Of a DNA stretch of 57,307 bases, positions 11,993-53,170 are shown piece after piece; position 1 is the first letter of the stretch, and each line of letters starts with the position of its first letter. The DNA comes from an uncultured Gammaproteobacteria bacterium (GTDB lineage Bacteria > Patescibacteriota > Patescibacteriia > UBA9570 > JBBTWU01): NCBI GenBank assembly GCA_964364425.1, contig CAYIMB010000003.1:1-57307 (forward strand), in the 5' to 3' direction. Position numbers and translations under genes: made by a program. Below the pieces are notes generated by a model. That model worked only from the letters and a program-made list of their open reading frames with translations, did not search any database and was not told where the DNA came from.

Positions 11993-12376
11993 ATGTTGGA
12001 TTTAAACATAGGACAACTCAGACAGAAACTACAACGCTACCCATTGCAGCAAGCGTACTTATTTGGTTCGTACGCCAGAGGTACAGCCGGTCCTTTATCT
12101 GATGTTGACATTGCCTTGTTGTTTAAGTCTCGAGTTAATAAGGACAAAATCGAGTCAAAAATTTTTGCTGACATATCTCAATTGTTACATACAGATAACA
12201 TTGATATTATTGATATTGAAACAGCCTCACCTCTCTTGGCGCATCGCTCTGTTATTCAAGGAGTGCCCTTGTTGAATCATTCAAGACATGAAGAGGCTGT
12301 ATTGAAAACAAGCATCTTACATTCTTACGAAGACTCACGTTATTTACGTGAGCTTAAAGCGCGAGCTGCAGTATGA
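11993..12376 (+). CDS. mntA: MNT nucleotidyltransferase antitoxin (type VII TA)
   Basis: LFGSYARG...SDVD (GSX10DXD). Confidence 0.88.
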   Translation: MLDLNIGQLRQKLQRYPLQQAYLFGSYARGTAGPLSDVDIALLFKSRVNKDKIESKIFADISQLLHTDNIDIIDIETASPLLAHRSVIQGVPLLNHSRHEEAVLKTSILHSYEDSRYLRELKARAAV

Positions 12377-12825
12377 CACTTGATCACCAGTCTATTATTG
12401 AAAAGAAAGTGAAATTACAGCAGGCCATTCGAGTTTTGGAAGACTTAGGTGGTCGCACGTTAGAAAATTTACAGAAGGATGAGATTGAGATGGGTGCTGT
12501 GCTACATTACTTAGCTCTCGGGATAGAATCTATACTTGATATTGGATCACATATACTCACTGAGGATTTTGGAACCTCTCCTCAAACGTATGAAGAGGTC
12601 ATTCAATTGTTGGGACAAAAAAAAGTGATTTCAATGGAGTTGGCCAAACAGTCTTCCGGCATAGGAAAGTTTCGCAATAAAATGATCCATGAGTATTCTC
12701 ATATCAATTTTGAAAAAGTGTATGGGTATCTTCAGAAGACACCAAAAGAACTTAAACGATTTGACCAGGCTTTTAGTAGGTATTTGAAGAAAAGAAAAAA
12801 AAGCAAAGGAGTAAATTCTATTTAG
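12373..12825 (+). CDS. hepT: HEPN (DUF86) RNase toxin
   Basis: FRNKMIHEY = RX4HXY; ATGA overlap with the MNT gene. Confidence 0.88.
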   Translation: MTLDHQSIIEKKVKLQQAIRVLEDLGGRTLENLQKDEIEMGAVLHYLALGIESILDIGSHILTEDFGTSPQTYEEVIQLLGQKKVISMELAKQSSGIGKFRNKMIHEYSHINFEKVYGYLQKTPKELKRFDQAFSRYLKKRKKSKGVNSI

Positions 12826-12956
12826 CCCTTTTTTATTCAAAATATTATAAATTCCCACGTTCCCAAAGCTCTTGTGTGAGATGTAGCCATAAATACAGGA
12901 TAAAAGCCTAATCCTGCCTTTCCGGCTGCATCTAACCCATTCAAGGAGGTGTTGAG

Positions 12957-13406
12957 ATGACTACAGTGACTCTGTCCCCCGTGATCCTGGAGCCGCCTTC
13001 CACGGGCTTCGTACGTGACAAGCGTTCCGAAGGTTGGGACCTGCTGCAAGCGGGCTGCCAGGTCGAGGGCGAATCCGTCCTGGAGCTGGCCGGATTCCTG
13101 CTCCTGGGTGAGGAATACGTTAACGGCCGGGTCATGCGTTACCGCTCCCTGGAGATGGGTGGCCGCACGGGCCAGCATCACGCCGAGCGTATGCTCGTCC
13201 AGGTTGAGGCCATCCCCACGGAGTGGCGCGAGTTCTACCTGGCGTTCCCAGACACCCTTTGGCGGCGCCCCGGCCGCTGCCTCTTTGTCCCGTGCCTGCG
13301 CTGGCGCGACGGCAGGTGGGTGCTTAACTTCCGCTGCGTCGTCCGCGACGCCCGCTGGAACGACGACCATCGGGTCGTCCGCGTCTGCAAGCAGCCTGGG
13401 TCCTAG
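12957..13406 (+). CDS. Hypothetical protein, DGR-target/C-type-lectin-like C-terminus (GC-rich solo gene)
   Basis: AAGGAGGT RBS; C-terminus VPCLRW...WVLNF...W.DDHRVVRV. Confidence 0.65.
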   Translation: MTTVTLSPVILEPPSTGFVRDKRSEGWDLLQAGCQVEGESVLELAGFLLLGEEYVNGRVMRYRSLEMGGRTGQHHAERMLVQVEAIPTEWREFYLAFPDTLWRRPGRCLFVPCLRWRDGRWVLNFRCVVRDARWNDDHRVVRVCKQPGS

Positions 13407-13435: not shown

Positions 13436-13506
13436 TGCACCTTCAACACCCCTGTTTCGGAGGAATCCCTCGCGGGATTCTACTGGACAGGGGGGGTGTT
13501 GTGTTT
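13436..13506 (+). terminator. TGCACCTTCAAC motif plus long hairpin and T-rich tail
   Basis: CAACACCCCTGT...GAATCCC-TCGC-GGGATTC...ACAGGGGGGGTGTTG-TGTTTT. Confidence 0.65.
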
Positions 13507-16500
13507 TAAGAGGTCTGTTGCAAATCGTTTAGCTGTTTTATCCAACGCATGAGAGTCTTGACCCAATCCTCACCTAAGTCCTCTTTATATACCCGCACCG
13601 TCCGTTCATCCACGCGTTCAAACGGTTGTTCAACAAATCCATACGCTATTGGATTCATGGTTTTGATGATAATTTTCTCACTCGGTAAACCATTATTCTT
13701 GTTAGGATAATTGGTATCTATAGATACAATCTGAGAGGATTGAATGAGTAAACGAATTTCAAACAGATCAAATAATTGTTTAAACTCATACGCTTTGGGT
13801 TCCCAGGTGTGCCTGGCTTTGCGTAACTCTTCTTCATCACGAATATTTGCAAATTGTTGATAGAGTAAAATTCGTTCACCTTCATCCGGCACCACATCTT
13901 CAGGGATGGTGGTGGACAGGGGAATATCAATCGGTACATCTCTAATGAGTGGCTGCATTTTCCCTTGCTTGAGTTCTGCCACAGCAGAGGAGAGGAGGCG
14001 AGAGTAGTAATTCAGACCAATGGTTTCTGCGTGTCCATGCTGATTTTTACCCAAAATAGAACCAACGCCGCGAATTTCCATATCACGCATAGCCAGTTCA
14101 AATCCCACACCAAGCTCTTGTGCTTCTTCTAAAGCCTTCAGACGCATCTTGGCTTCATCTGTCAGATCACGCGAATGGTAAAAGAAATATGCATAGGCTT
14201 GAGTTGTCCCACGACCAATCCGGCCACGCAGTTGATGCAGTTGAGCCAGACCAAAGTTGGTGGCTCGTTCCACAATTAAGGTGTTGGCCTGCGGAATATC
14301 AAGACCATTTTCTATAATAGTAGAACAGACTAGGATATCCACCTGTTGGGTATCAAAAGCATGCATGACGCCTGCCAGTTCACTTTCTGGAAGCTGTCCA
14401 TGACCCACGCCAATCCGAACCGCCGGAAACCATTGTTGTAATTCATGAGCTTTGGCTTGAATGGTGTCTACGTCATTGTGCAGGAAATACACTTGACCTT
14501 TGCGGGCAAGCTCACGGGTGATGGCTGACTTCACTAATTCAGAGTCGTACGGAGTCACAAAGGATTCAATTCCCAGACGTCCGGGTGGAGGAGTGGTGAT
14601 GGTGGAAATGCCTCGTACGCCACTGAGCGCCAAGTGCAAAGTGCGGGGGAGAGGTGTGGCACTGAGAGTCAGTACGTGTGCTTCAGAGCGGAGTTTACGC
14701 AAGACTTCTTTTTGCTTCACACCAAAGCGTTGTTCTTCATCTATGATGACTAAACCCAAGTTTTTGAATTTTACGTCTTTGGACAGAATCCGGTGTGTGC
14801 CAATGACAATATCCACATTTCCGGCGGCCAACCTCTTTACAGTGTCTTTTTGATCTGCGGCGGTACGGAAGCGGGAAAGAAGTCCTACGTTGAACCCGGT
14901 GTTGGCCAAACGACGCTCAAATGTATCAAAATGTTGCTGAACCAAAATGGTTGTTGGTGCTAGGACGGTCACCTGCATGCCTTGTGCCAACACACGCACT
15001 GCAGCCCGCAGAGCCACTTCTGTTTTTCCAAACCCCACGTCACCACATAACAAGCGGTCCATAGGTGTGTCCTTGGCTAAGTCTGCATACACCGCTTCAA
15101 GTCCAGTCTGTTGATCTTCCGTGAGTTCATACGGGAAACCAGCATTCACTTGTTCCTCAAGCTCTTGGTGTGGAGTGATGGGCCTGGCTTTGGCTAATTC
15201 CCGTTGGGCATAAATCTTGAGCAACTCCTGAGCTAGCTCAAGCGTGTGTTTTTGCACATGACGCACGGCCGTTTCCCAAGTGGCATCATGCAGTGAATGC
15301 ACTTTGGGGTGAGCTGAACCTACATATTTTTCTACGCGGTCGGCTGTTTCAGCCGGAACATACAACTTATCTTTGCCGGCGTATTCCAAAATTAAATAAT
15401 CCCGTTTCATCCCATTCACTTCCATCACTGTTGTTCCGCTAAACCGCGCCACACCGTGATACACATGCACCACATAATCTCTAGGAGTAATGGACAAGAC
15501 TAGGGGTGATCCAGCACCAGCTGTTTTTGAGATCGATTTTCTGGTGTTGGTATGTTTCTTCACCCACTCCGCACCAAACACATCCGCATCACCTATTAAA
15601 CAAAAATTTCGTTCCTGGTCAGTAAACCCTTCTAATTCCAAGGTAGTTTCCCGTACATCCAAGCTCACAGATTCGGCGAGCGGTTTGAGTTGTTTGTGTG
15701 TTGCGTCTGAAAACTGAGTGGCTACCCAACGCCGTTCAAATTGTTTGACCGTCCGAAAAAGTTCTTCTAATCCAACGCTGGAAGGTGGAAGTCGGCGTTG
15801 GTGAGTAGCCATCACCCCATCCATCACAAAATGAGACAAGGTCAGCACCGCCGCACGTTGCGTGGGAAGGGGAGTATCTTCTTCATGAATAATGAGTCGG
15901 TCTCGGACATTATCCAAGAGTGTATATGTTCCTTTTCCGGCCAAAGAGCATGGGTAGAAGGTCACCGCGCTAGTGACTGCCGCCGCATCTCCTGACTGAC
16001 TGATTCGTTCAATACTTCCAATCCGGTCATAGTCCCACTGAATGCGGAAATGATTGTTGAGTGATCCAAACACATCAACCACATCTCCAATCACAGAAAA
16101 GGTTCCTACTTGCTCTGCCTTTTTCCCCACCCGGTCATACCCAGCTAAGCTGAGTCGTTCGACCACATTACTTTGAGCCAGTTTAGTATCAACGGCTAAC
16201 TGGAAAGTCAGTTCACGCACGTCACGGGGCGAAACGGTGGAGGTATCTAAAGAGTCCGGGTAAGCCAGCAGTACATCTACCCCAAGCGCCGCACCAGGCG
16301 CCGCATTTGTCCATTCTTCTATATCTACCGAGGGTTGAAAAAACAGCAACGCTTGCCGCAACCAGTCGGCCTCCTTTTTACTCTTGGCCAAATACAAAAC
16401 CCGCCTGTATTTCAATACAGGGGGGAGGGTCTGGCTGAGAAAAAAGACGATTCCGGTCAGATGCGCGAACCCGCCAATCACCTTTTCTTGACCCACAGCC

Positions 16501-16538
16501 AGCTTTTCTATGGGCATTTCCGGTGTCACCGTAGCCAT
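13506..16538 (-). CDS. mfd: Transcription-repair coupling factor Mfd
   Basis: CarD-like VVHVYHGVARF, CGDVGFGKTEV, IIDEEQRFG, QLRGRIGRG, TRCF tail; probable start ATG 16538. Confidence 0.93.
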   Translation of the reverse strand: MATVTPEMPIEKLAVGQEKVIGGFAHLTGIVFFLSQTLPPVLKYRRVLYLAKSKKEADWLRQALLFFQPSVDIEEWTNAAPGAALGVDVLLAYPDSLDTSTVSPRDVRELTFQLAVDTKLAQSNVVERLSLAGYDRVGKKAEQVGTFSVIGDVVDVFGSLNNHFRIQWDYDRIGSIERISQSGDAAAVTSAVTFYPCSLAGKGTYTLLDNVRDRLIIHEEDTPLPTQRAAVLTLSHFVMDGVMATHQRRLPPSSVGLEELFRTVKQFERRWVATQFSDATHKQLKPLAESVSLDVRETTLELEGFTDQERNFCLIGDADVFGAEWVKKHTNTRKSISKTAGAGSPLVLSITPRDYVVHVYHGVARFSGTTVMEVNGMKRDYLILEYAGKDKLYVPAETADRVEKYVGSAHPKVHSLHDATWETAVRHVQKHTLELAQELLKIYAQRELAKARPITPHQELEEQVNAGFPYELTEDQQTGLEAVYADLAKDTPMDRLLCGDVGFGKTEVALRAAVRVLAQGMQVTVLAPTTILVQQHFDTFERRLANTGFNVGLLSRFRTAADQKDTVKRLAAGNVDIVIGTHRILSKDVKFKNLGLVIIDEEQRFGVKQKEVLRKLRSEAHVLTLSATPLPRTLHLALSGVRGISTITTPPPGRLGIESFVTPYDSELVKSAITRELARKGQVYFLHNDVDTIQAKAHELQQWFPAVRIGVGHGQLPESELAGVMHAFDTQQVDILVCSTIIENGLDIPQANTLIVERATNFGLAQLHQLRGRIGRGTTQAYAYFFYHSRDLTDEAKMRLKALEEAQELGVGFELAMRDMEIRGVGSILGKNQHGHAETIGLNYYSRLLSSAVAELKQGKMQPLIRDVPIDIPLSTTIPEDVVPDEGERILLYQQFANIRDEEELRKARHTWEPKAYEFKQLFDLFEIRLLIQSSQIVSIDTNYPNKNNGLPSEKIIIKTMNPIAYGFVEQPFERVDERTVRVYKEDLGEDWVKTLMRWIKQLNDLQQTS

Positions 16539-16611
16539 GAGTATCCTTATTTTAGTGCATTTTTCGCTGCTTGTAAATCGATTTTCATCCAATTTACCGT
16601 CCTAACGCTCA

Positions 16612-16735
16612 TTCCGTACGCACACATATTTTGCGACACTTGCACGTGCAGACTAAAAAACATTCAGATTACTTATACTTTACCCTGTGCGTACGCACAC
16701 AATCTGAGCCGAATACGTTTTGCGACACATGCCAT
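16612..16735. repeat. Palindrome cluster A (CGTACGCACACA..TTTTGCGACAC twice, TGCACGTGCA, TGTGCGTACGCACA)
   Basis: Motifs recur, inverted, at 24314-24413. Confidence 0.7.
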
Positions 16736-16765
16736 CGCACACCTCAAAACCTAACCAATTTGTCC

Positions 16766-16793
16766 TTGACAATAACTTCCTTTTTGCTACTAT
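16766..16793 (+). promoter_or_regulatory. Promoter of the candidate sRNA
   Basis: TTGACA-16 bp-TACTAT with extended -10 TG. Confidence 0.7.
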
Positions 16794-16799
16794 CTGGCG

Positions 16800-17000
16800 T
16801 CCGAGGCAGTTGCCCATACCATGTCGTGCCAAAGATTTGAGTCGTTCATTAACCCTCCTTGATGAACGATTCGTCTCTGGTGCGGCATAGTGCGGGAAAC
16901 CAATTCGTGAAATTCGCCGTTTGAAGTCCTTGTGTAAAGTGCATGAGAACCCTCCTTCTCATGTTGCCTTGCGCAGGGGCTTGAACCGGCGAATTTTTTA
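16800..17000 (+). ncRNA. Candidate sRNA: two long hairpins with identical CCCUCC loops
   Basis: Hairpins 16813-16896 and 16911-16995 with many G-U pairs on the + strand; promoter upstream, U-run downstream. Confidence 0.75.
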
Positions 17001-17001
17001 T

Positions 17002-17096
17002 TTCGATTTTCACGCACAGAGCGCAAGGACGGCTCAGAGGGGTCCGCTCATCCGGGAGCTTCAATCACCCTTCTTCGCGGACCCCTCTTCCGCCGC
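17002..17096 (-). repeat. Dispersed structured repeat, copy A
   Basis: Aligns with 24457-24551; 12-bp stem AGAGGGGTCCGC/GCGGACCCCTCT. Confidence 0.85.
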
Positions 17097-17117
17097 TCGC
17101 TTTGTATTCCTAAAAAA

Positions 17118-17423
17118 TCAAAATAAATTTTCCATGTGACAAAGTACCTTTCCACCGGTATCCTTAAGGGTTTTTTCAGCCACGCCGTAATCAATAATGG
17201 GAATACGTTCCAGGGTATAGGGAGTAATATCCAAACCAACCTCTTCCAGTACCTCGCGGGTCATGGCTTGTTCAAAAGTCTCTCCCTCATCCACACCTCC
17301 TCCGGGAGTATGCCAACAATCTAGGTACACCCCGCCTTTAGACGGATCCTTTCTCCCCAGGAGAAGTTTGTTGTCCTGACTGAAAATAAGGGCCGCTACA
17401 ATTGTTCTCTGTATTTCCCGCAT
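17118..17423 (-). CDS. NUDIX hydrolase, probably C-terminally truncated
   Basis: Nudix box GGGVDEGETFEQAMTREVLEEVG; only 101 aa. Confidence 0.75.
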   Translation of the reverse strand: MREIQRTIVAALIFSQDNKLLLGRKDPSKGGVYLDCWHTPGGGVDEGETFEQAMTREVLEEVGLDITPYTLERIPIIDYGVAEKTLKDTGGKVLCHMENLF

Positions 17424-17432
17424 GGCCTGATG

Positions 17433-18023
17433 TTATTTAGCAAACTTTGTGTTCCACTCATTCATGGTGGCGTCTATCCCTTCCAGAATAAATGTTTGGA
17501 CGGCTTGAGATGCTTTTTTGGCCAAAGACTTCACCACCTTTTGTTCTGCCGGTTTGAATTCACCCAAAATATAATCCACAATATTTTTAATCCCGCCAGC
17601 GCTCCGCGGCCCAACACCAAAGCGCAGGCGCCCAACTTCTTCTGTTTTGAGTAAGCGCAAAATTCCACCTAAACCCTTATGTCCTCCATTGGAACCCATT
17701 TTGCGTACGCGCAACGTTCCTAAGGGTAAATCCTTATCATCATACATAACCAAGATATGTTCCGGTTTTGTTTTCCCAACTACCTGAGCCACCACTTTTC
17801 CCGAGTTATTCATCATCTTCATAGGCTTCACCAACACCACGCTTTGGGACTTCACTTTGGTTTTGGCGGTCATGGCGCCGGAGTATTTGTCCAGTTTCCA
17901 ATCGTCCTTTTTTACGCCCAAGTCCTTAGCTAGCTGGTCTATGACTATAAACCCAGAACTATGTCTGGACCAAACATACTCTTCTCCTGGATTCCCTAAA
18001 CCAATGACAAATTTTGTGGCCAT
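17433..18023 (-). CDS. pth: Peptidyl-tRNA hydrolase
   Basis: GLGNPG, MNNSG, GGHKG. Confidence 0.93.
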   Translation of the reverse strand: MATKFVIGLGNPGEEYVWSRHSSGFIVIDQLAKDLGVKKDDWKLDKYSGAMTAKTKVKSQSVVLVKPMKMMNNSGKVVAQVVGKTKPEHILVMYDDKDLPLGTLRVRKMGSNGGHKGLGGILRLLKTEEVGRLRFGVGPRSAGGIKNIVDYILGEFKPAEQKVVKSLAKKASQAVQTFILEGIDATMNEWNTKFAK

Positions 18024-24456: not shown

Positions 24457-24551
24457 GCGGCGTAAGAGGGGTCTGCGAAGAAGGGTGTTTGAAGCTCCCG
24501 GATGAGCAGACCCCTCTGAGCCGTCTTTGTCGTTCTCTGCTGAAAATCGAA
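24457..24551 (+). repeat. Dispersed structured repeat, copy B
   Basis: Stem AGAGGGGTCTGC/GCAGACCCCTCT; aligns with the reverse complement of 17002-17096. Confidence 0.85.
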
Positions 24552-24626
24552 TTTGACCTAGTTCCAAAAAAATTGTAGAATTTTGGTACCTATGAACAGG
24601 ATTTATTTTGCAAAGGAGGTGGCACT

Positions 24627-24911
24627 ATTTCAGTAATAGATGTAAACAAAAAAGAGGGCGAATCAAATGAAAGTTTGATGCGTCGTTTTACCCGTAGGGT
24701 TCAGTCCACGGGAATGATTAACCGTGTCAAAAAACGTCAGTTTATGGCTAAAAAGCCTAATAAGCGCGCCGTGCGTTTGAAGGCTATTCGCCGAACCAAA
24801 ATGGCTGATGAGCGCGAATATTTACGTAAAATTGGAAAACTAGACGAAGTGCTGGAACGTGGCCGCGGCCGCAAAGGCAAACCAACCCGTCCGTCAGCCC
24901 CTAGACCATAA
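24627..24911 (+). CDS. rpsU: 30S ribosomal protein bS21, probable non-canonical ATT start
   Basis: IDVNKKEGESNESLMRRFTRRV is a bS21-type N-terminus; AAGGAGGT 6 nt upstream of ATT; followed by yqeY. Confidence 0.75.
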   Translation: MSVIDVNKKEGESNESLMRRFTRRVQSTGMINRVKKRQFMAKKPNKRAVRLKAIRRTKMADEREYLRKIGKLDEVLERGRGRKGKPTRPSAPRP

Positions 24912-53097: not shown

Positions 53098-53170
53098 GTT
53101 CGTTTGGGAGGCAATGAGGTGTGAATCCTCAACAGTGCCGCTACCGTAAAGTCGGAAAACTCCAACGGAC
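53098..53170 (+). ncRNA. Compact cobalamin riboswitch
   Basis: GGGAG..GAGGTGTGAATCCTC-AACAGTGCCGCTACCGTAA-AGTCGGAAAA resembles the Cbl core and B12 box; closing stem GTTCGTTTGGGAG/CTCCAACGGAC. Confidence 0.75.

What the first reader, a model, noticed from the sequence alone, without database searches (positions are those of the whole stretch)
16766..17000. Candidate sRNA with twin anti-Shine-Dalgarno loops (AA-CCCUCC-UU twice)
Seen: a promoter (TTGACA-16-TACTAT, extended -10), two ~85-nt hairpins (16813-16896, 16911-16995) and a U-run. The stems differ in sequence, yet both present the identical hexaloop CCCUCC (16853-16858, 16950-16955) closed by AA/UU. Numerous G-U pairs form only on the + strand, which fixes orientation. 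Each loop is preceded by CAU, so the RNA is complementary to AAGGAGG-N4/6-AUG, a generic initiation region. Hairpin 1 (CCUCCUUGA) pairs 9/9 with the RBS of the GC-rich gene at 12941-12949 (TCAAGGAGG), and the loops can also pair with the rpsU SD. Known: C-rich anti-SD loops are the seed regions of sRNAs such as RsaE, RNAIII and alphaproteobacterial cuckoo RNAs; I know of none from CPR. Inference: a global repressor or sponge for SD-led, largely accessory mRNAs in a cell whose core genes are often leaderless.
Basis: partly seen in the sequence, partly recalled or inferred. Interest (0 to 1): 0.85.

Follow-up and report, generated by a model that had tools for sequence, protein, structure and literature searches.

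The report
Phylum-wide small RNA with anti-Shine-Dalgarno loop
The twin hairpins are a real small-RNA gene, a local two-hairpin version of a previously unlisted RNA family found across this small-genome bacterial phylum, whose one unchanging feature is a hairpin loop carrying the same CCUCCU letters that ribosomes use to find genes.

Summary
On the + strand lie a promoter (16766-16793), two ~85-nt hairpins with identical AACCCUCCUU tips, and a U-run. The fold has z = -12.3.

Related groundwater strains keep exactly this unit, 16764-17011, while the flanks diverge or differ.

It is not an isolated sRNA. By synteny with pth I found an unannotated structured RNA family:
- a long closing stem P1;
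- a hairpin P2 with an invariant A-N-Y-CCUCCU loop;
- usually a third hairpin P3;
- a consensus promoter and a U-run.

Covariation is strong: 37 of 45 pairs change on both sides, and 0 of 500 shuffles reach that. G-U pairs fix the strand, 61 against 12.

A model built without the window ranks H2 and H1 as the window's two best matches.

The family appears in 80 of 151 class genomes and 19 of 150 other phylum genomes, nearly always tail-to-tail with pth. Rfam 15 has no match, and SRP and 6S were tested and excluded.

Function is not shown. The best guess is a trans-acting copy of the ribosome's anti-SD that pairs with AGGAGG tracts, in a largely leaderless, SD-poor genome.

The parts
16766..16793 (+). 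sigma-70-type promoter: -35 TTGACA (16766-16771), 16-nt T-rich spacer, extended -10 TG-C-TACTAT (16785-16793). The predicted start of the RNA is near 16800.
   Evidence: It is one of only 30 such sites in the genome. The block conserved in related strains begins at 16764/16765. The same promoter type stands before the RNA in relatives.
16813..16896 (+). Hairpin H1: 35 pairs, 7 of them G-U, with hexaloop CCCUCC at 16853-16858 closed by two A-U pairs.
   Evidence: It is the second-best match of model R2 in the window (16805-16902, 22.3 bits, E 3.6e-4). In strains X4 and X5, 16893 C>T turns the A16816 x C16893 mismatch into A-U.
16897..16908 (+). Unpaired linker between the two hairpins. It varies among strains.
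   Evidence: Strain changes are A>G at 16903, an inserted C after 16907, and a 9-nt deletion at 16902 in X5.
16909..16996 (+). Hairpin H2: 37 pairs, 6 of them G-U, with hexaloop CCCUCC at 16950-16955 closed by two A-U pairs. It is the counterpart of the family's P1+P2 and also serves as the terminator stem.
   Evidence: It is the best match of R2 in the window (16907-16997, 32 bits, E 4.4e-7) and scores 28.5 bits with R3. In X4, 16910 A>G gives G-U on the + strand only, and single-base deletions at 16911 and 16994 lie on opposite sides of the basal stem.
16994..17003 (+). U-run (TTTTTTATTT) after H2: an intrinsic terminator.
   Evidence: The block conserved in strain X5 ends at 17011. A U-run ends the RNA in relatives too.
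17020..17100 (.). Neighbouring REP-like palindromic repeat. It is not part of the RNA. It lies between the RNA and the NUDIX/pth genes.
   Evidence: 15 copies in the genome. Many unrelated contigs pile up on it in four metagenome runs.
17433..18023 (-). pth (peptidyl-tRNA hydrolase), the gene whose 3' end faces the RNA's 3' end throughout the family. Here a NUDIX gene (17118-17423) and the repeat are inserted between them.
   Evidence: Pfam PF01195, E 1.5e-51. Synteny is shown.

Best explanation
The window encodes a ~200-nt + strand non-coding RNA, from about 16800 to about 17003. It is the local, derived form of a structured RNA family that is conserved across the window's phylum. That phylum has small genomes and looks CPR-like, but the tools gave no names.

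The usual family member is ~125-160 nt and is transcribed from a consensus promoter. It has a long closing stem P1, a hairpin P2 and a further hairpin P3. In most lineages outside the window's order, P2 sits on a GCGAA/AGUAGC internal loop. The P2 loop always reads A-N-Y-CCUCCU. A U-run follows.

In the window's lineage P3 is gone, P1 and P2 are fused into one 37-pair hairpin (H2), and a second hairpin with the same loop (H1) stands in front. The nearest families also have such a 5' hairpin.

Shown: the gene unit, its strand, its structure by covariation, its conservation and distribution, and its link to pth.

Inferred: the mechanism. The invariant loop is the same six letters as the core of the 16S rRNA 3' tail (the anti-SD). 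I therefore think the RNA most likely acts in translation as an anti-SD offered in trans. Its loop or loops would pair with AGGAGG-type purine tracts (SD sequences) on mRNAs and so keep them from, or compete with, the 30S subunit. This would happen in cells where most genes start without an SD.

My odds: real RNA gene and family member about 0.9; this mechanism about 0.35-0.4. The confidence figure given for this explanation is that of the whole statement, mechanism included.
For: Gene unit:
- Promoter, two hairpins and a U-run are present.
- In strain run X4 the RNA body 16808-16965 differs at 3 bases plus 2 indels. The flanking mfd piece differs at 17-26 of ~180-194 bases, the NUDIX piece at 18 of 121, and the upstream spacer is replaced.
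- In X5 only 16764-17011 is alike and both flanks are unlike.
- All listed changes sit in the linker or keep or improve pairing.

Family:
- 13 of 29 pth loci of order relatives have promoter plus a CCTCC motif downstream of pth on the opposite strand.
- In alignment A3 (11 sequences, window excluded), 45 pairs are predicted and 37 have changes on both sides. 93% of cells are paired, against 34-45% when partners are slid. 0 of 500 shuffles reach this.
- The P1 of A6 (23 sequences, 13 families) has 26 pairs, 25 with double changes.
- The only invariant columns are A..CCUCCU. The closing A-U is present in 23 of 23.

Strand: G-U 61 against A/C 12 in A3, and 90 against 14 in A6.

Membership of the window RNA:
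- R2, built without it, gives H2 32 bits and H1 22.3 bits as ranks 1 and 2 of the window. The minus strand scores 13.9 bits.
- The place next to pth is the same.
- Two-hairpin forms occur in G001, G004 and G016.

Distribution:
- R2 finds it in 20 of 31 other genomes of the order. By family: f4 13/13, f5 4/5, f2 1/1, f3 2/12, the last two weak.
- A promoter-gap-loop pattern hits 99 of 401 class genomes, against 3 for the backwards control.
- R3 finds it in 80 of 151 class genomes and 19 of 150 other phylum genomes. The top 12 phylum loci all carry the plan and the loop, 12 of 12.

Translation context:
- pth lies convergent to the RNA in 5 of 5 class loci and 9 of 9 tested phylum loci.
- In the genome, -10-like hexamers are 8-13x enriched right before start codons, while GGAGG is only 1.9x enriched. 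GGAGG or AGGAG is seen before 91 of 761 ORFs, against 71 of 760 at internal control sites.
- The likely own 16S 3' end reads GGATCACCTCCTTTCT.
Against: - No transcript evidence. No RNA run holds the sequence, so expression, ends and abundance are unshown.
- No specific target. Complementarity to the genome is at chance level beyond the 6-10 nt of the loop. AAGGAGG is not enriched in the genome: 76 seen, 78 expected.
- Phylum-wide conservation, one copy per genome and conserved junction motifs are more typical of a protein-bound housekeeping RNA than of a base-pairing regulator.
- A hexaloop on a 37-pair stem is a small pairing surface.
- The bin holds a second, different 16S (contig C34) whose tail reads ATCTCC, so the organism's own anti-SD is not fully certain.
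- In whole-genome mode, R2 and R3 did not pick the window locus. It scores only with filters off on the window or locus.
- R3 models P1 only and also scores a long hairpin without the loop (G000:C27). The figure of 80 of 151 is therefore an upper bound. 24 loci were found by both R3 and the independent pattern, by my comparison.
Confidence: 0.4

Rival explanations
1. Protein decoy or RNP. The loop copies the 16S rRNA 3' tail in order to bind a protein that normally recognises that tail, such as a 30S maturation or platform factor. Alternatively, the RNA is the scaffold of an unknown housekeeping particle. The twin loops in the window would then suit a dimer.
For: - The family is phylum-wide, usually one copy per genome, and has a consensus promoter.
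- The junction motif GCGAA / AGUAGC flanking P2 is conserved, and P3 is conserved, in class and phylum members. I recall that AGUA/GAA is the loop-E or S-turn type of protein-binding motif. That is recalled, not tested.
- The loop shares CCUCCU with the 16S tail.
- No Hfq was found.
Against: - No candidate partner was identified.
- The letters before CCUCCU (A-N-Y) differ from those of the 16S tail (TCA), so the mimicry is limited to 6-7 nt.
- The window's form has lost the junction motif and P3 but kept, and doubled, the loop. This points to the loop alone as the working part.
Confidence: 0.25
2. Cis-antisense partner of pth. The RNA gene abuts the 3' end of pth tail-to-tail, so pth transcripts must run into the antisense of the RNA. 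The RNA, or the act of transcribing it, would then control pth mRNA ends or stability, for example through RNase III. P1 with its A-run and U-run would be a two-way terminator.
For: - pth is convergent in 5 of 5 class loci and 9 of 9 tested phylum loci.
- In order relatives the U-run ends 0-40 nt from, or overlaps, the pth stop.
- The R3 consensus begins with an A-run paired to the final U-run.
- RNase III is present.
Against: - In the window, a NUDIX gene and a repeat separate the RNA from pth by 430 nt. In G009 and G012 the RNA lies 6-10 kb from pth, and in G010 on another contig. Yet the RNA is kept.
- An antisense role does not explain an invariant loop with freely covarying stems, nor the G-U bias for the RNA's own strand.
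Confidence: 0.18
3. The minus strand is the functional one. It would carry two tiny ORFs, of 31 aa (ATG at 16944) and 19 aa (ATG at 16849, overlapping as TAATG). Each is preceded by a perfect AAGGAGG that sits in a hairpin loop. Alternatively, the GGA-containing loops on that strand would sponge CsrA.
For: - The window sequence shows AAGGAGGG-N4/6-ATG twice on the minus strand (ORF frames).
- That is 2 of only 15 AAGGAGGG in the genome.
- The 9-nt linker deletion in X5 would keep the frame.
Against: - Of 33 family members with AGGAGG on that strand, only the window's H2 has an ATG 4-10 nt downstream. 4 others have TTG or GTG opening 2-13 codons.
- G-U against A/C counts favour the other strand: 13 to 4 in the window, 61 to 12 and 90 to 14 in the family.
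- No minus-strand promoter was found in the conserved block.
- Two of the three substitutions in strain X4 would change the 31-aa peptide (my reading).
- No CsrA was found in a 99.8% complete genome.
Confidence: 0.03
4. It is a very divergent copy of a known housekeeping RNA, either SRP RNA or 6S RNA. Neither could be found in this genome.
For: - No 6S, small SRP or large SRP RNA was found in the genome. No small SRP RNA was found in 151 class genomes.
- A ~150-nt three-helix RNA with one copy per genome is the right size class.
Against: - Rfam SRP and 6S models give no match at E up to 1-10 on the window, 6 order loci or 20 class loci.
- R2 and R3 do not touch E. coli ffs at E up to 10 with filters off.
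- The SRP proteins themselves are not detectable. SRP_SPB is in 0 of 32 order and 0 of 151 class genomes. The SRP54 GTPase domain is absent from the genome, and no open frame carries the recalled GTPase motifs.
- The junction leaves no large central bubble as 6S has.
Confidence: 0.04

Closest known systems
Cuckoo RNAs of alphaproteobacteria (RSs0680/CcsR, alpha-r14, NfeR1)
   Same: Both have 2-4 adjacent hairpins, each loop carrying the same C-rich anti-SD-like motif, while the stems vary freely. Both are independent genes with a terminator (PMC4615179: abstract and passages read).
   Different: - Motif: CCUCCUCCC there; CCCUCC in the window and A-N-Y-CCUCCU in the family.
- Size: hairpins of 24-50 nt with loops of 9-27 nt there, against 84-87-nt hairpins with 6-nt loops here.
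- Copy number: several copies per genome in many species there (table seen), as a rule one here.
- Taxon and shape: the taxon differs, and the usual family member here is a three-helix junction rather than a row of hairpins.
- Hfq: RSs0680a is Hfq-bound, while no Hfq was found here.
- No Rfam model matched.
C-rich-loop sRNAs of Firmicutes (RNAIII, RsaE and relatives)
   Same: C-rich hairpin loops are thought to seed pairing with ribosome binding sites (passage on RNAIII and UCCC loops in PMC4615179; RsaE is recalled).
   Different: Those are genus- or order-level regulators with known targets. This family spans a phylum, has a conserved three-way architecture and has no identified target.
3' tail of 16S rRNA (anti-Shine-Dalgarno)
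   Same: Both carry the six letters CCUCCU followed by U or A. The 16S end on contig C12 of this genome reads GGATCACCTCCTTTCT.
   Different: Here the letters sit in a closed hairpin loop of a separate small RNA, not at a free 3' end. The preceding letters differ.
SD-poor Bacteroidetes with a sequestered anti-SD
   Same: The lineage makes little use of SD although the ribosome keeps the anti-SD (abstract of PMC7797042 seen in the listing). Here too SD use is near background, while rpsU keeps a strong AAAGGAGG.
   Different: There the anti-SD is hidden by ribosomal proteins. A trans RNA carrying the anti-SD letters has not been described there. I read only the abstract.
SRP RNA and 6S RNA
   Same: Similar size, one copy per genome, a strong promoter and a long closing helix.
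   Different: Tested by covariance models in both directions, with no match.

Membership tests
New family (CCUCCU-loop RNA next to pth) | Hairpin loop reading A-N-Y-CCUCCU, closed by an A-U pair | tested here: met
   Window loops read AAC-CCUCCU-U twice. The family columns are invariant in 23 of 23 sequences and the A-U closing pair is present in 23 of 23.
New family (CCUCCU-loop RNA next to pth) | Match to a covariance model built without the window sequence | tested here: met
   With R2, H2 scores 32 bits (E 4.4e-7) and H1 22.3 bits (E 3.6e-4), ranks 1 and 2 of the window with filters off. With R3, H2 scores 28.5 bits. Not met in whole-genome mode with speed filters.
New family (CCUCCU-loop RNA next to pth) | Own consensus promoter upstream and U-run downstream, on the strand opposite to pth, at the 3' side of pth | tested here: met
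   In the window a NUDIX gene and a repeat are inserted between the RNA and pth.
New family (CCUCCU-loop RNA next to pth) | Three-way junction with a P3 hairpin and the GCGAA/AGUAGC motif | tested here: not met
   Window H1 and H2 are plain hairpins. G001's second module, G141 and G143 likewise lack P3, so this feature varies within the family.
Cuckoo RNA (alpha-r14/CcsR) | Loop motif CCUCCUCCC in every hairpin | tested here: not met
   The loops are CCCUCC. The definition is taken from PMC4615179.
Cuckoo RNA (alpha-r14/CcsR) | Hairpins of 24-50 nt with loops of 9-27 nt | tested here: not met
   The hairpins are 84 and 87 nt with 6-nt loops.
Cuckoo RNA (alpha-r14/CcsR) | 2-4 adjacent hairpins with variable stems | tested here: met
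Bacterial SRP RNA | Match to Rfam RF00169 or RF01854, and reciprocal match of the family models to a known ffs gene | tested here: not met
   R2 and R3 on E. coli ffs give no hit at E up to 10.
Bacterial SRP RNA | Presence of the partner protein Ffh (M domain) | tested here: not met
   PF02978 is in 0 of 32 order and 0 of 151 class genomes. PF00448 is absent from the genome.
6S RNA | Match to Rfam RF00013; long hairpin with a large central bubble | tested here: not met
   The junction is tight in the consensus structure.
CsrB/RsmZ-type sponge (minus strand) | GGA loops together with a CsrA protein in the genome | tested here: not met
   No CsrA was found. The strand evidence is against it.
Trans-acting anti-SD riboregulator (functional class) | Binding to SD regions of mRNAs and block of initiation | not testable with these tools
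   Only the complementarity of CCUCCU to AGGAGG is shown. No RNA data exist.

The most novel reading that the evidence does not exclude
Bacteria of this small-genome phylum carry a so far unrecognised housekeeping RNA. It is as widespread within the phylum as 6S or SRP RNA are elsewhere. It displays a copy of the ribosome's anti-Shine-Dalgarno sequence on a rigid stem and is genetically locked to pth. It would set, in trans, how SD-bearing messages are read, or would titrate a factor that reads the 16S tail. The cells concerned initiate mostly without SD and, in the window's class, appear to lack the SRP pathway altogether.
Probability: 0.35. Interest if true: 0.92.

Novelty: new variant of a known kind. 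Interest (0 to 1): 0.85.

Why it matters
Very few non-coding RNAs are known from CPR-like bacteria beyond rRNA, tRNA and RNase P.

This is a structured RNA with strong covariation, one invariant loop, a phylum-level spread and a fixed neighbour (pth). It is a ready-made new RNA family for databases and a concrete handle on how translation starts in these organisms.

The loop is the anti-SD core, and the genome barely uses SD. This makes an old question testable: what happens to SD/anti-SD recognition in leaderless or SD-poor lineages? One RNA and one six-letter mutation would address it.

Tried and rejected
- DNA similarity. blastn-type search of 16760-17005 in 40 relatives gave only 14-29-nt chance matches, best E 0.006. 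Phage records gave none.
- Single-sequence model R1. It found 0 of 31 other order genomes, 0 of 150 other class genomes, and 0 in 26 loci. Its failure was due to stem divergence, not absence.
- Exact twin-loop pattern AACCCTCCTT-N72-102-AACCCTCCTT.
  - 109 stretches in genome contigs. None has both loops on long stems; the best had 11 pairs, in a repeat array.
None is a twin long hairpin.
  - 19 viral stretches, none.
- MAFFT of H1 against H2 gave no meaningful alignment.
- RNA evidence: no RNA holder listed, so expression could not be examined.
- Extended target complementarity is at the chance level.
- A scan for hairpins with CCTCC loops in the genome, using a loose stem rule, was uninformative because it was too permissive.
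- Minus-strand ORFs, a CsrA sponge, SRP RNA and 6S: see rivals.
- R3 whole-genome hit G000:C27:8616-8749. It is a long hairpin with a P1-like sequence but no CCUCCU loop, lying between an AbiEii-like gene and ruvB. It is not syntenic and remains unexplained.
- RNAalifold on the broad alignment A6 recovered P1 only, because MAFFT does not keep P2 and P3 in register across classes. R3 is therefore a P1-plus-sequence model.
- Alignment A4 mixed both strands and was not used. In A5 the window row was misaligned by 2-3 columns and G031 lacks the loop. A5 was used only as a source of sequences.
- Literature searches (and a find in one preprint) turned up no description of such an RNA in CPR/Patescibacteria. 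Supplements were not seen. These searches cover only the held library.
Full report
**1. What is in the window**

The 525-bp gap between mfd (13506-16592, minus strand) and a NUDIX gene (17118-17423, minus strand) is followed by pth and der, both on the minus strand. On the + strand this gap holds a complete small transcription unit:
- TTGACA-16-TG-C-TACTAT at 16766-16793;
- two hairpins, H1 16813-16896 and H2 16909-16996;
- a T-run at 16994-17003.

The + strand fold has -101.4 kcal/mol and z = -12.3. The minus strand has -71.9 kcal/mol and z = -5.6. H1 has 35 pairs, 7 of them G-U. H2 has 37 pairs, 6 of them G-U. Only 4 oppositions are A/C, which would be G-U on the other strand.

The stems are unrelated in sequence, yet the ten apical letters AACCCUCCUU are identical. 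The promoter type is rare in this genome: 30 sites, about 9 expected by my arithmetic, and 20 of them sit before ORFs.

**2. Close relatives keep the unit**

No RNA run holds the sequence. DNA contigs of four groundwater runs from four studies were laid on 16450-17250.
- In X4 the RNA body 16808-16965 shows 3 substitutions and 2 single-base indels.
- In X4 the mfd start region shows 17-26 differences in ~180-194 bases, and the NUDIX piece 18 in 121.
- In X4 the spacer upstream of the promoter (16627/16643-16764) is replaced by other letters.
- In X5 a contig is alike only from 16764 to 17011, that is from two bases before the -35 box to just past the U-run. Both flanks are unlike.

The listed changes fit the fold:
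- 16893 C>T repairs the A16816 x C16893 mismatch;
- 16910 A>G gives a G-U pair that exists on the + strand only;
- deletions at 16911 and 16994 lie on opposite arms of the basal stem;
- the remaining changes, including a 9-nt deletion, fall in the linker.

Some differences of these contigs were not listed by the tool ('9 more are not shown'). For X5 I therefore cannot vouch for every base of the loops. For X4 record 18, all three substitutions are accounted for and lie outside the loops.

**3. First searches failed, for an instructive reason**

All of the following found nothing:
- sequence search in 40 relatives;
- a single-sequence covariance model R1 in 31 order genomes and 150 class genomes;
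- exact twin-loop pattern scans of three public collections.

The genome is the only held member of its family, and Pth is only 34-42% identical to that of order relatives. Stems would thus be expected to have turned over completely.

**4. Synteny reveals a family**

I fetched the pth loci of 29 order relatives and folded what lies downstream of pth. In 13 of the 29 the same arrangement appeared, on the strand opposite to pth:
- a TTGACA-N17-(TG)nTAnnnT promoter;
- 50-100 nt later, a hairpin loop with CCUCCU;
- a U-run that ends within 0-40 nt of, or overlaps, the pth stop.

Family f4 has one module. G001 (f2), G004 and G016 (f5) have two hairpins with such loops, like the window.

An 11-sequence alignment without the window (A3) folds into a three-way junction:
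- P1 with 28 pairs;
- P2 with 12 pairs and a 12-nt loop holding invariant A-Y-UCCUCCU;
- P3 with 5 pairs.

Of the 45 pairs, 37 show changes on both sides. 93% of cells are paired, against 34-45% when partners are slid by 1-3 columns, and no shuffle out of 500 reaches the observed values. G-U cells outnumber A/C cells 61 to 12. Together with the promoters and U-runs, this fixes the strand.

**5. The window RNA belongs to it**

Model R2, built from A3, was run over the whole window with filters off. Its two best matches are 16907-16997 + (32 bits, E 4.4e-7) and 16805-16902 + (22.3 bits, E 3.6e-4). The next is the minus strand of H2 at 13.9 bits.

In whole-genome mode with speed filters the locus is missed, so the window form is a distant member. 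It lacks P3 and the junction. H2 corresponds to P1 and P2 fused into one stem, and H1 is an added second copy of the loop-bearing hairpin.

**6. Distribution**

- R2 finds the RNA in 20 of 31 other order genomes: f4 13/13, f5 4/5 (the fifth, G013, scores 28 bits with filters off), f2 1/1, and f3 only 2/12 at E 0.03 and 0.26. There is one locus per genome.
- A pattern that ignores the stems (promoter, 50-80 nt, AMYCCTCCT) hits 99 of 401 class genomes. The same pattern read backwards hits 3.
- Of 30 such loci folded, I judged 17 by eye to have the plan. 15 of them, plus G143 and 7 order members, gave alignment A6 (23 sequences, 13 families). I dropped L345 and L354 for ragged ends.
- In A6 the only invariant columns are A and CCUCCU of the loop. 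The A-U pair closing the loop holds in 23 of 23. P1 has 26 pairs, 25 with double changes.
- Model R3 from A6 (P1 plus sequence) matches 80 of 151 class genomes and 19 of 150 other genomes in a phylum-wide sample that is almost entirely other classes.
- All 12 fetched phylum loci show P1, GCGAA...AGUAGC around P2, a loop reading (C/A)AUCCCUCCUA, and P3.

R3 can also score a long hairpin lacking the loop (G000:C27), so 80 of 151 is an upper bound. By my comparison, 24 genomes have the same locus found by both methods. Some genomes carry two modules in tandem (G046, G113, G162).

**7. Neighbourhood**

pth is the convergent neighbour in 5 of 5 class loci, with dprA divergent on the other side. It is also the convergent neighbour in 9 of 9 tested phylum loci from six families. 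Those nine were chosen from 11 loci as the ORFs of pth-like size and orientation; L376 and L378 had none and were not tested.

The link is not absolute. In G009 and G012 the RNA lies 6-10 kb from pth, and in the window a NUDIX gene and a repeat intervene.

**8. What it is not**

- Rfam 15 gives no match at the gathering threshold, nor at E up to 1-10, on the window, 6 order loci and 20 class loci.
- 6S, small SRP RNA and large SRP RNA are not found anywhere in the genome.
- R2 and R3 do not touch E. coli ffs.
- The minus-strand reading (two tiny ORFs behind perfect SDs) is particular to this genome. Only 1 of 33 members has an ATG in place.
- No CsrA and no Hfq were found. RNase III is present.
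- Cuckoo RNAs share the design principle but not the motif, the sizes or the taxon.

**9. How it may work**

Shown: the one thing selection never lets change is CCUCCU in a loop closed by A-U. These are also the core letters of the 16S 3' tail. The 16S end on contig C12 reads GGATCACCTCCTTTCT. C12 carries the genome's own repeat family, unlike contig C34, whose 16S differs by 18% and ends ATCTCC.

Also shown: the genome hardly uses SD.
- GGAGG or AGGAG precedes 91 of 761 long ORFs, against 71 of 760 at internal control sites.
- Extended -10 boxes abut 91 of 761 starts, against 23 of 760 at control sites.
- TATACT is 12.9-fold enriched in the 20 nt before starts.
- The few strong SDs include rpsU and a six-member paralogue family of ~145 aa.

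Inferred: the RNA offers an anti-SD in trans and pairs with AGGAGG tracts. The window's lineage doubled the loop and, uniquely, extended complementarity to the start codon.

Equally open is a decoy for a protein that reads the 16S tail. The conserved tail-to-tail pth arrangement suggests at least an added antisense or terminator relation. No computation available here can decide between these.

**10. Verdict**

This is a real RNA gene and a new RNA family with phylum-level spread. The mechanism is unproven. It is the same kind of device as anti-SD-loop sRNAs, in a new and far more conserved form.

Noticed in passing
whole genome G000; order and class samples: The SRP pathway is not detectable. 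There is no small or large SRP RNA, no SRP_SPB domain and no SRP54 GTPase domain in the genome. No open frame carries the recalled GTPase motifs. SRP_SPB is in 0 of 32 order and 0 of 151 class genomes, and RF00169 in 0 of 151. The literature search showed no report of this. It needs an independent annotation.
   Followed up: partly
window 17020-17100: A ~75-nt GC-rich palindromic repeat (REP-like) has 15 copies in the genome at 79-95% identity, including one at window 24457-24529 just upstream of rpsU. Dozens of unrelated contigs pile up on it in four groundwater runs.
   Followed up: partly
whole genome G000: Leaderless signature. -10-like words (TATACT 12.9x, TATAAT 7.9x, TGCTA 4.8x) are the most enriched words in the 20 nt before the first start codon of 761 long ORFs. 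SD words are near background.
   Followed up: partly
window 24612-24911: rpsU (S21, weak Pfam match) has a strong AAAGGAGG. It has no ATG, GTG or TTG before the conserved N-terminus, so the frame probably starts at ATT 24627, 7 nt after the SD.
   Followed up: partly
window 12957-13406; G000 C2:72, C2:56070, C2:68388, C15:73, C10:34686: A paralogue family of ~142-149-aa proteins has no Pfam match. Two copies are truncated. All sit behind a strong AAGGAGGTG in an SD-poor genome, and the window copy lies in a GC-richer patch.
   Followed up: partly
G000 C34:7872-9360 and C12:1-1310: The bin holds two different 16S genes that are ~82% alike over 240 nt. C34 is complete, and its 3' end has ATCTCC instead of ACCTCC. 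C12 is partial, has about 1 kb of extra sequence between model position 1325 and the 3' end (an insertion), and has a canonical tail. One of the two is probably foreign.
   Followed up: partly
G000 C27:8616-8749 (minus strand): A 134-nt long hairpin with A-run and U-run flanks has stem letters resembling the family's P1 (R3 36 bits) but no CCUCCU loop. It lies between an AbiEii-like gene and ruvB. It could be a relative, a remnant or a look-alike terminator.
   Followed up: partly
window 16614-16730: Upstream of the RNA promoter, the words GTACGCACACA and TTTTGCGACAC each occur twice, ~75-90 nt apart. This spacer is replaced by other letters in related strains. A 35-nt piece (16626-16660) recurs on other contigs.
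   Followed up: no
window 16538-16592: The listed TTG start of mfd (16592) probably overshoots. A TTTACA-17-TAAAAT promoter lies at 16577-16549, inside that frame, and an ATG at 16538 follows it by ~10 nt.
   Followed up: no
whole genome G000: ARAGORN finds no tmRNA, and Rfam 6S finds nothing. RNase P was not looked for.
   Followed up: no
window 11993-12825: A nucleotidyltransferase (MNT-like) and HepT ribonuclease pair, a toxin-antitoxin-type module.
   Followed up: no
window 53098-53170: An AdoCbl-II (cobalamin) riboswitch, the only Rfam match at the gathering threshold in the window.
   Followed up: no
G046 C8:48387-48633; G113 C6:49830-50092; G162 C40:1352-1612; L324 1501-1741: Head-to-tail pairs of family modules occur in other genomes, so doubling of the loop-bearing unit has happened more than once.
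   Followed up: no
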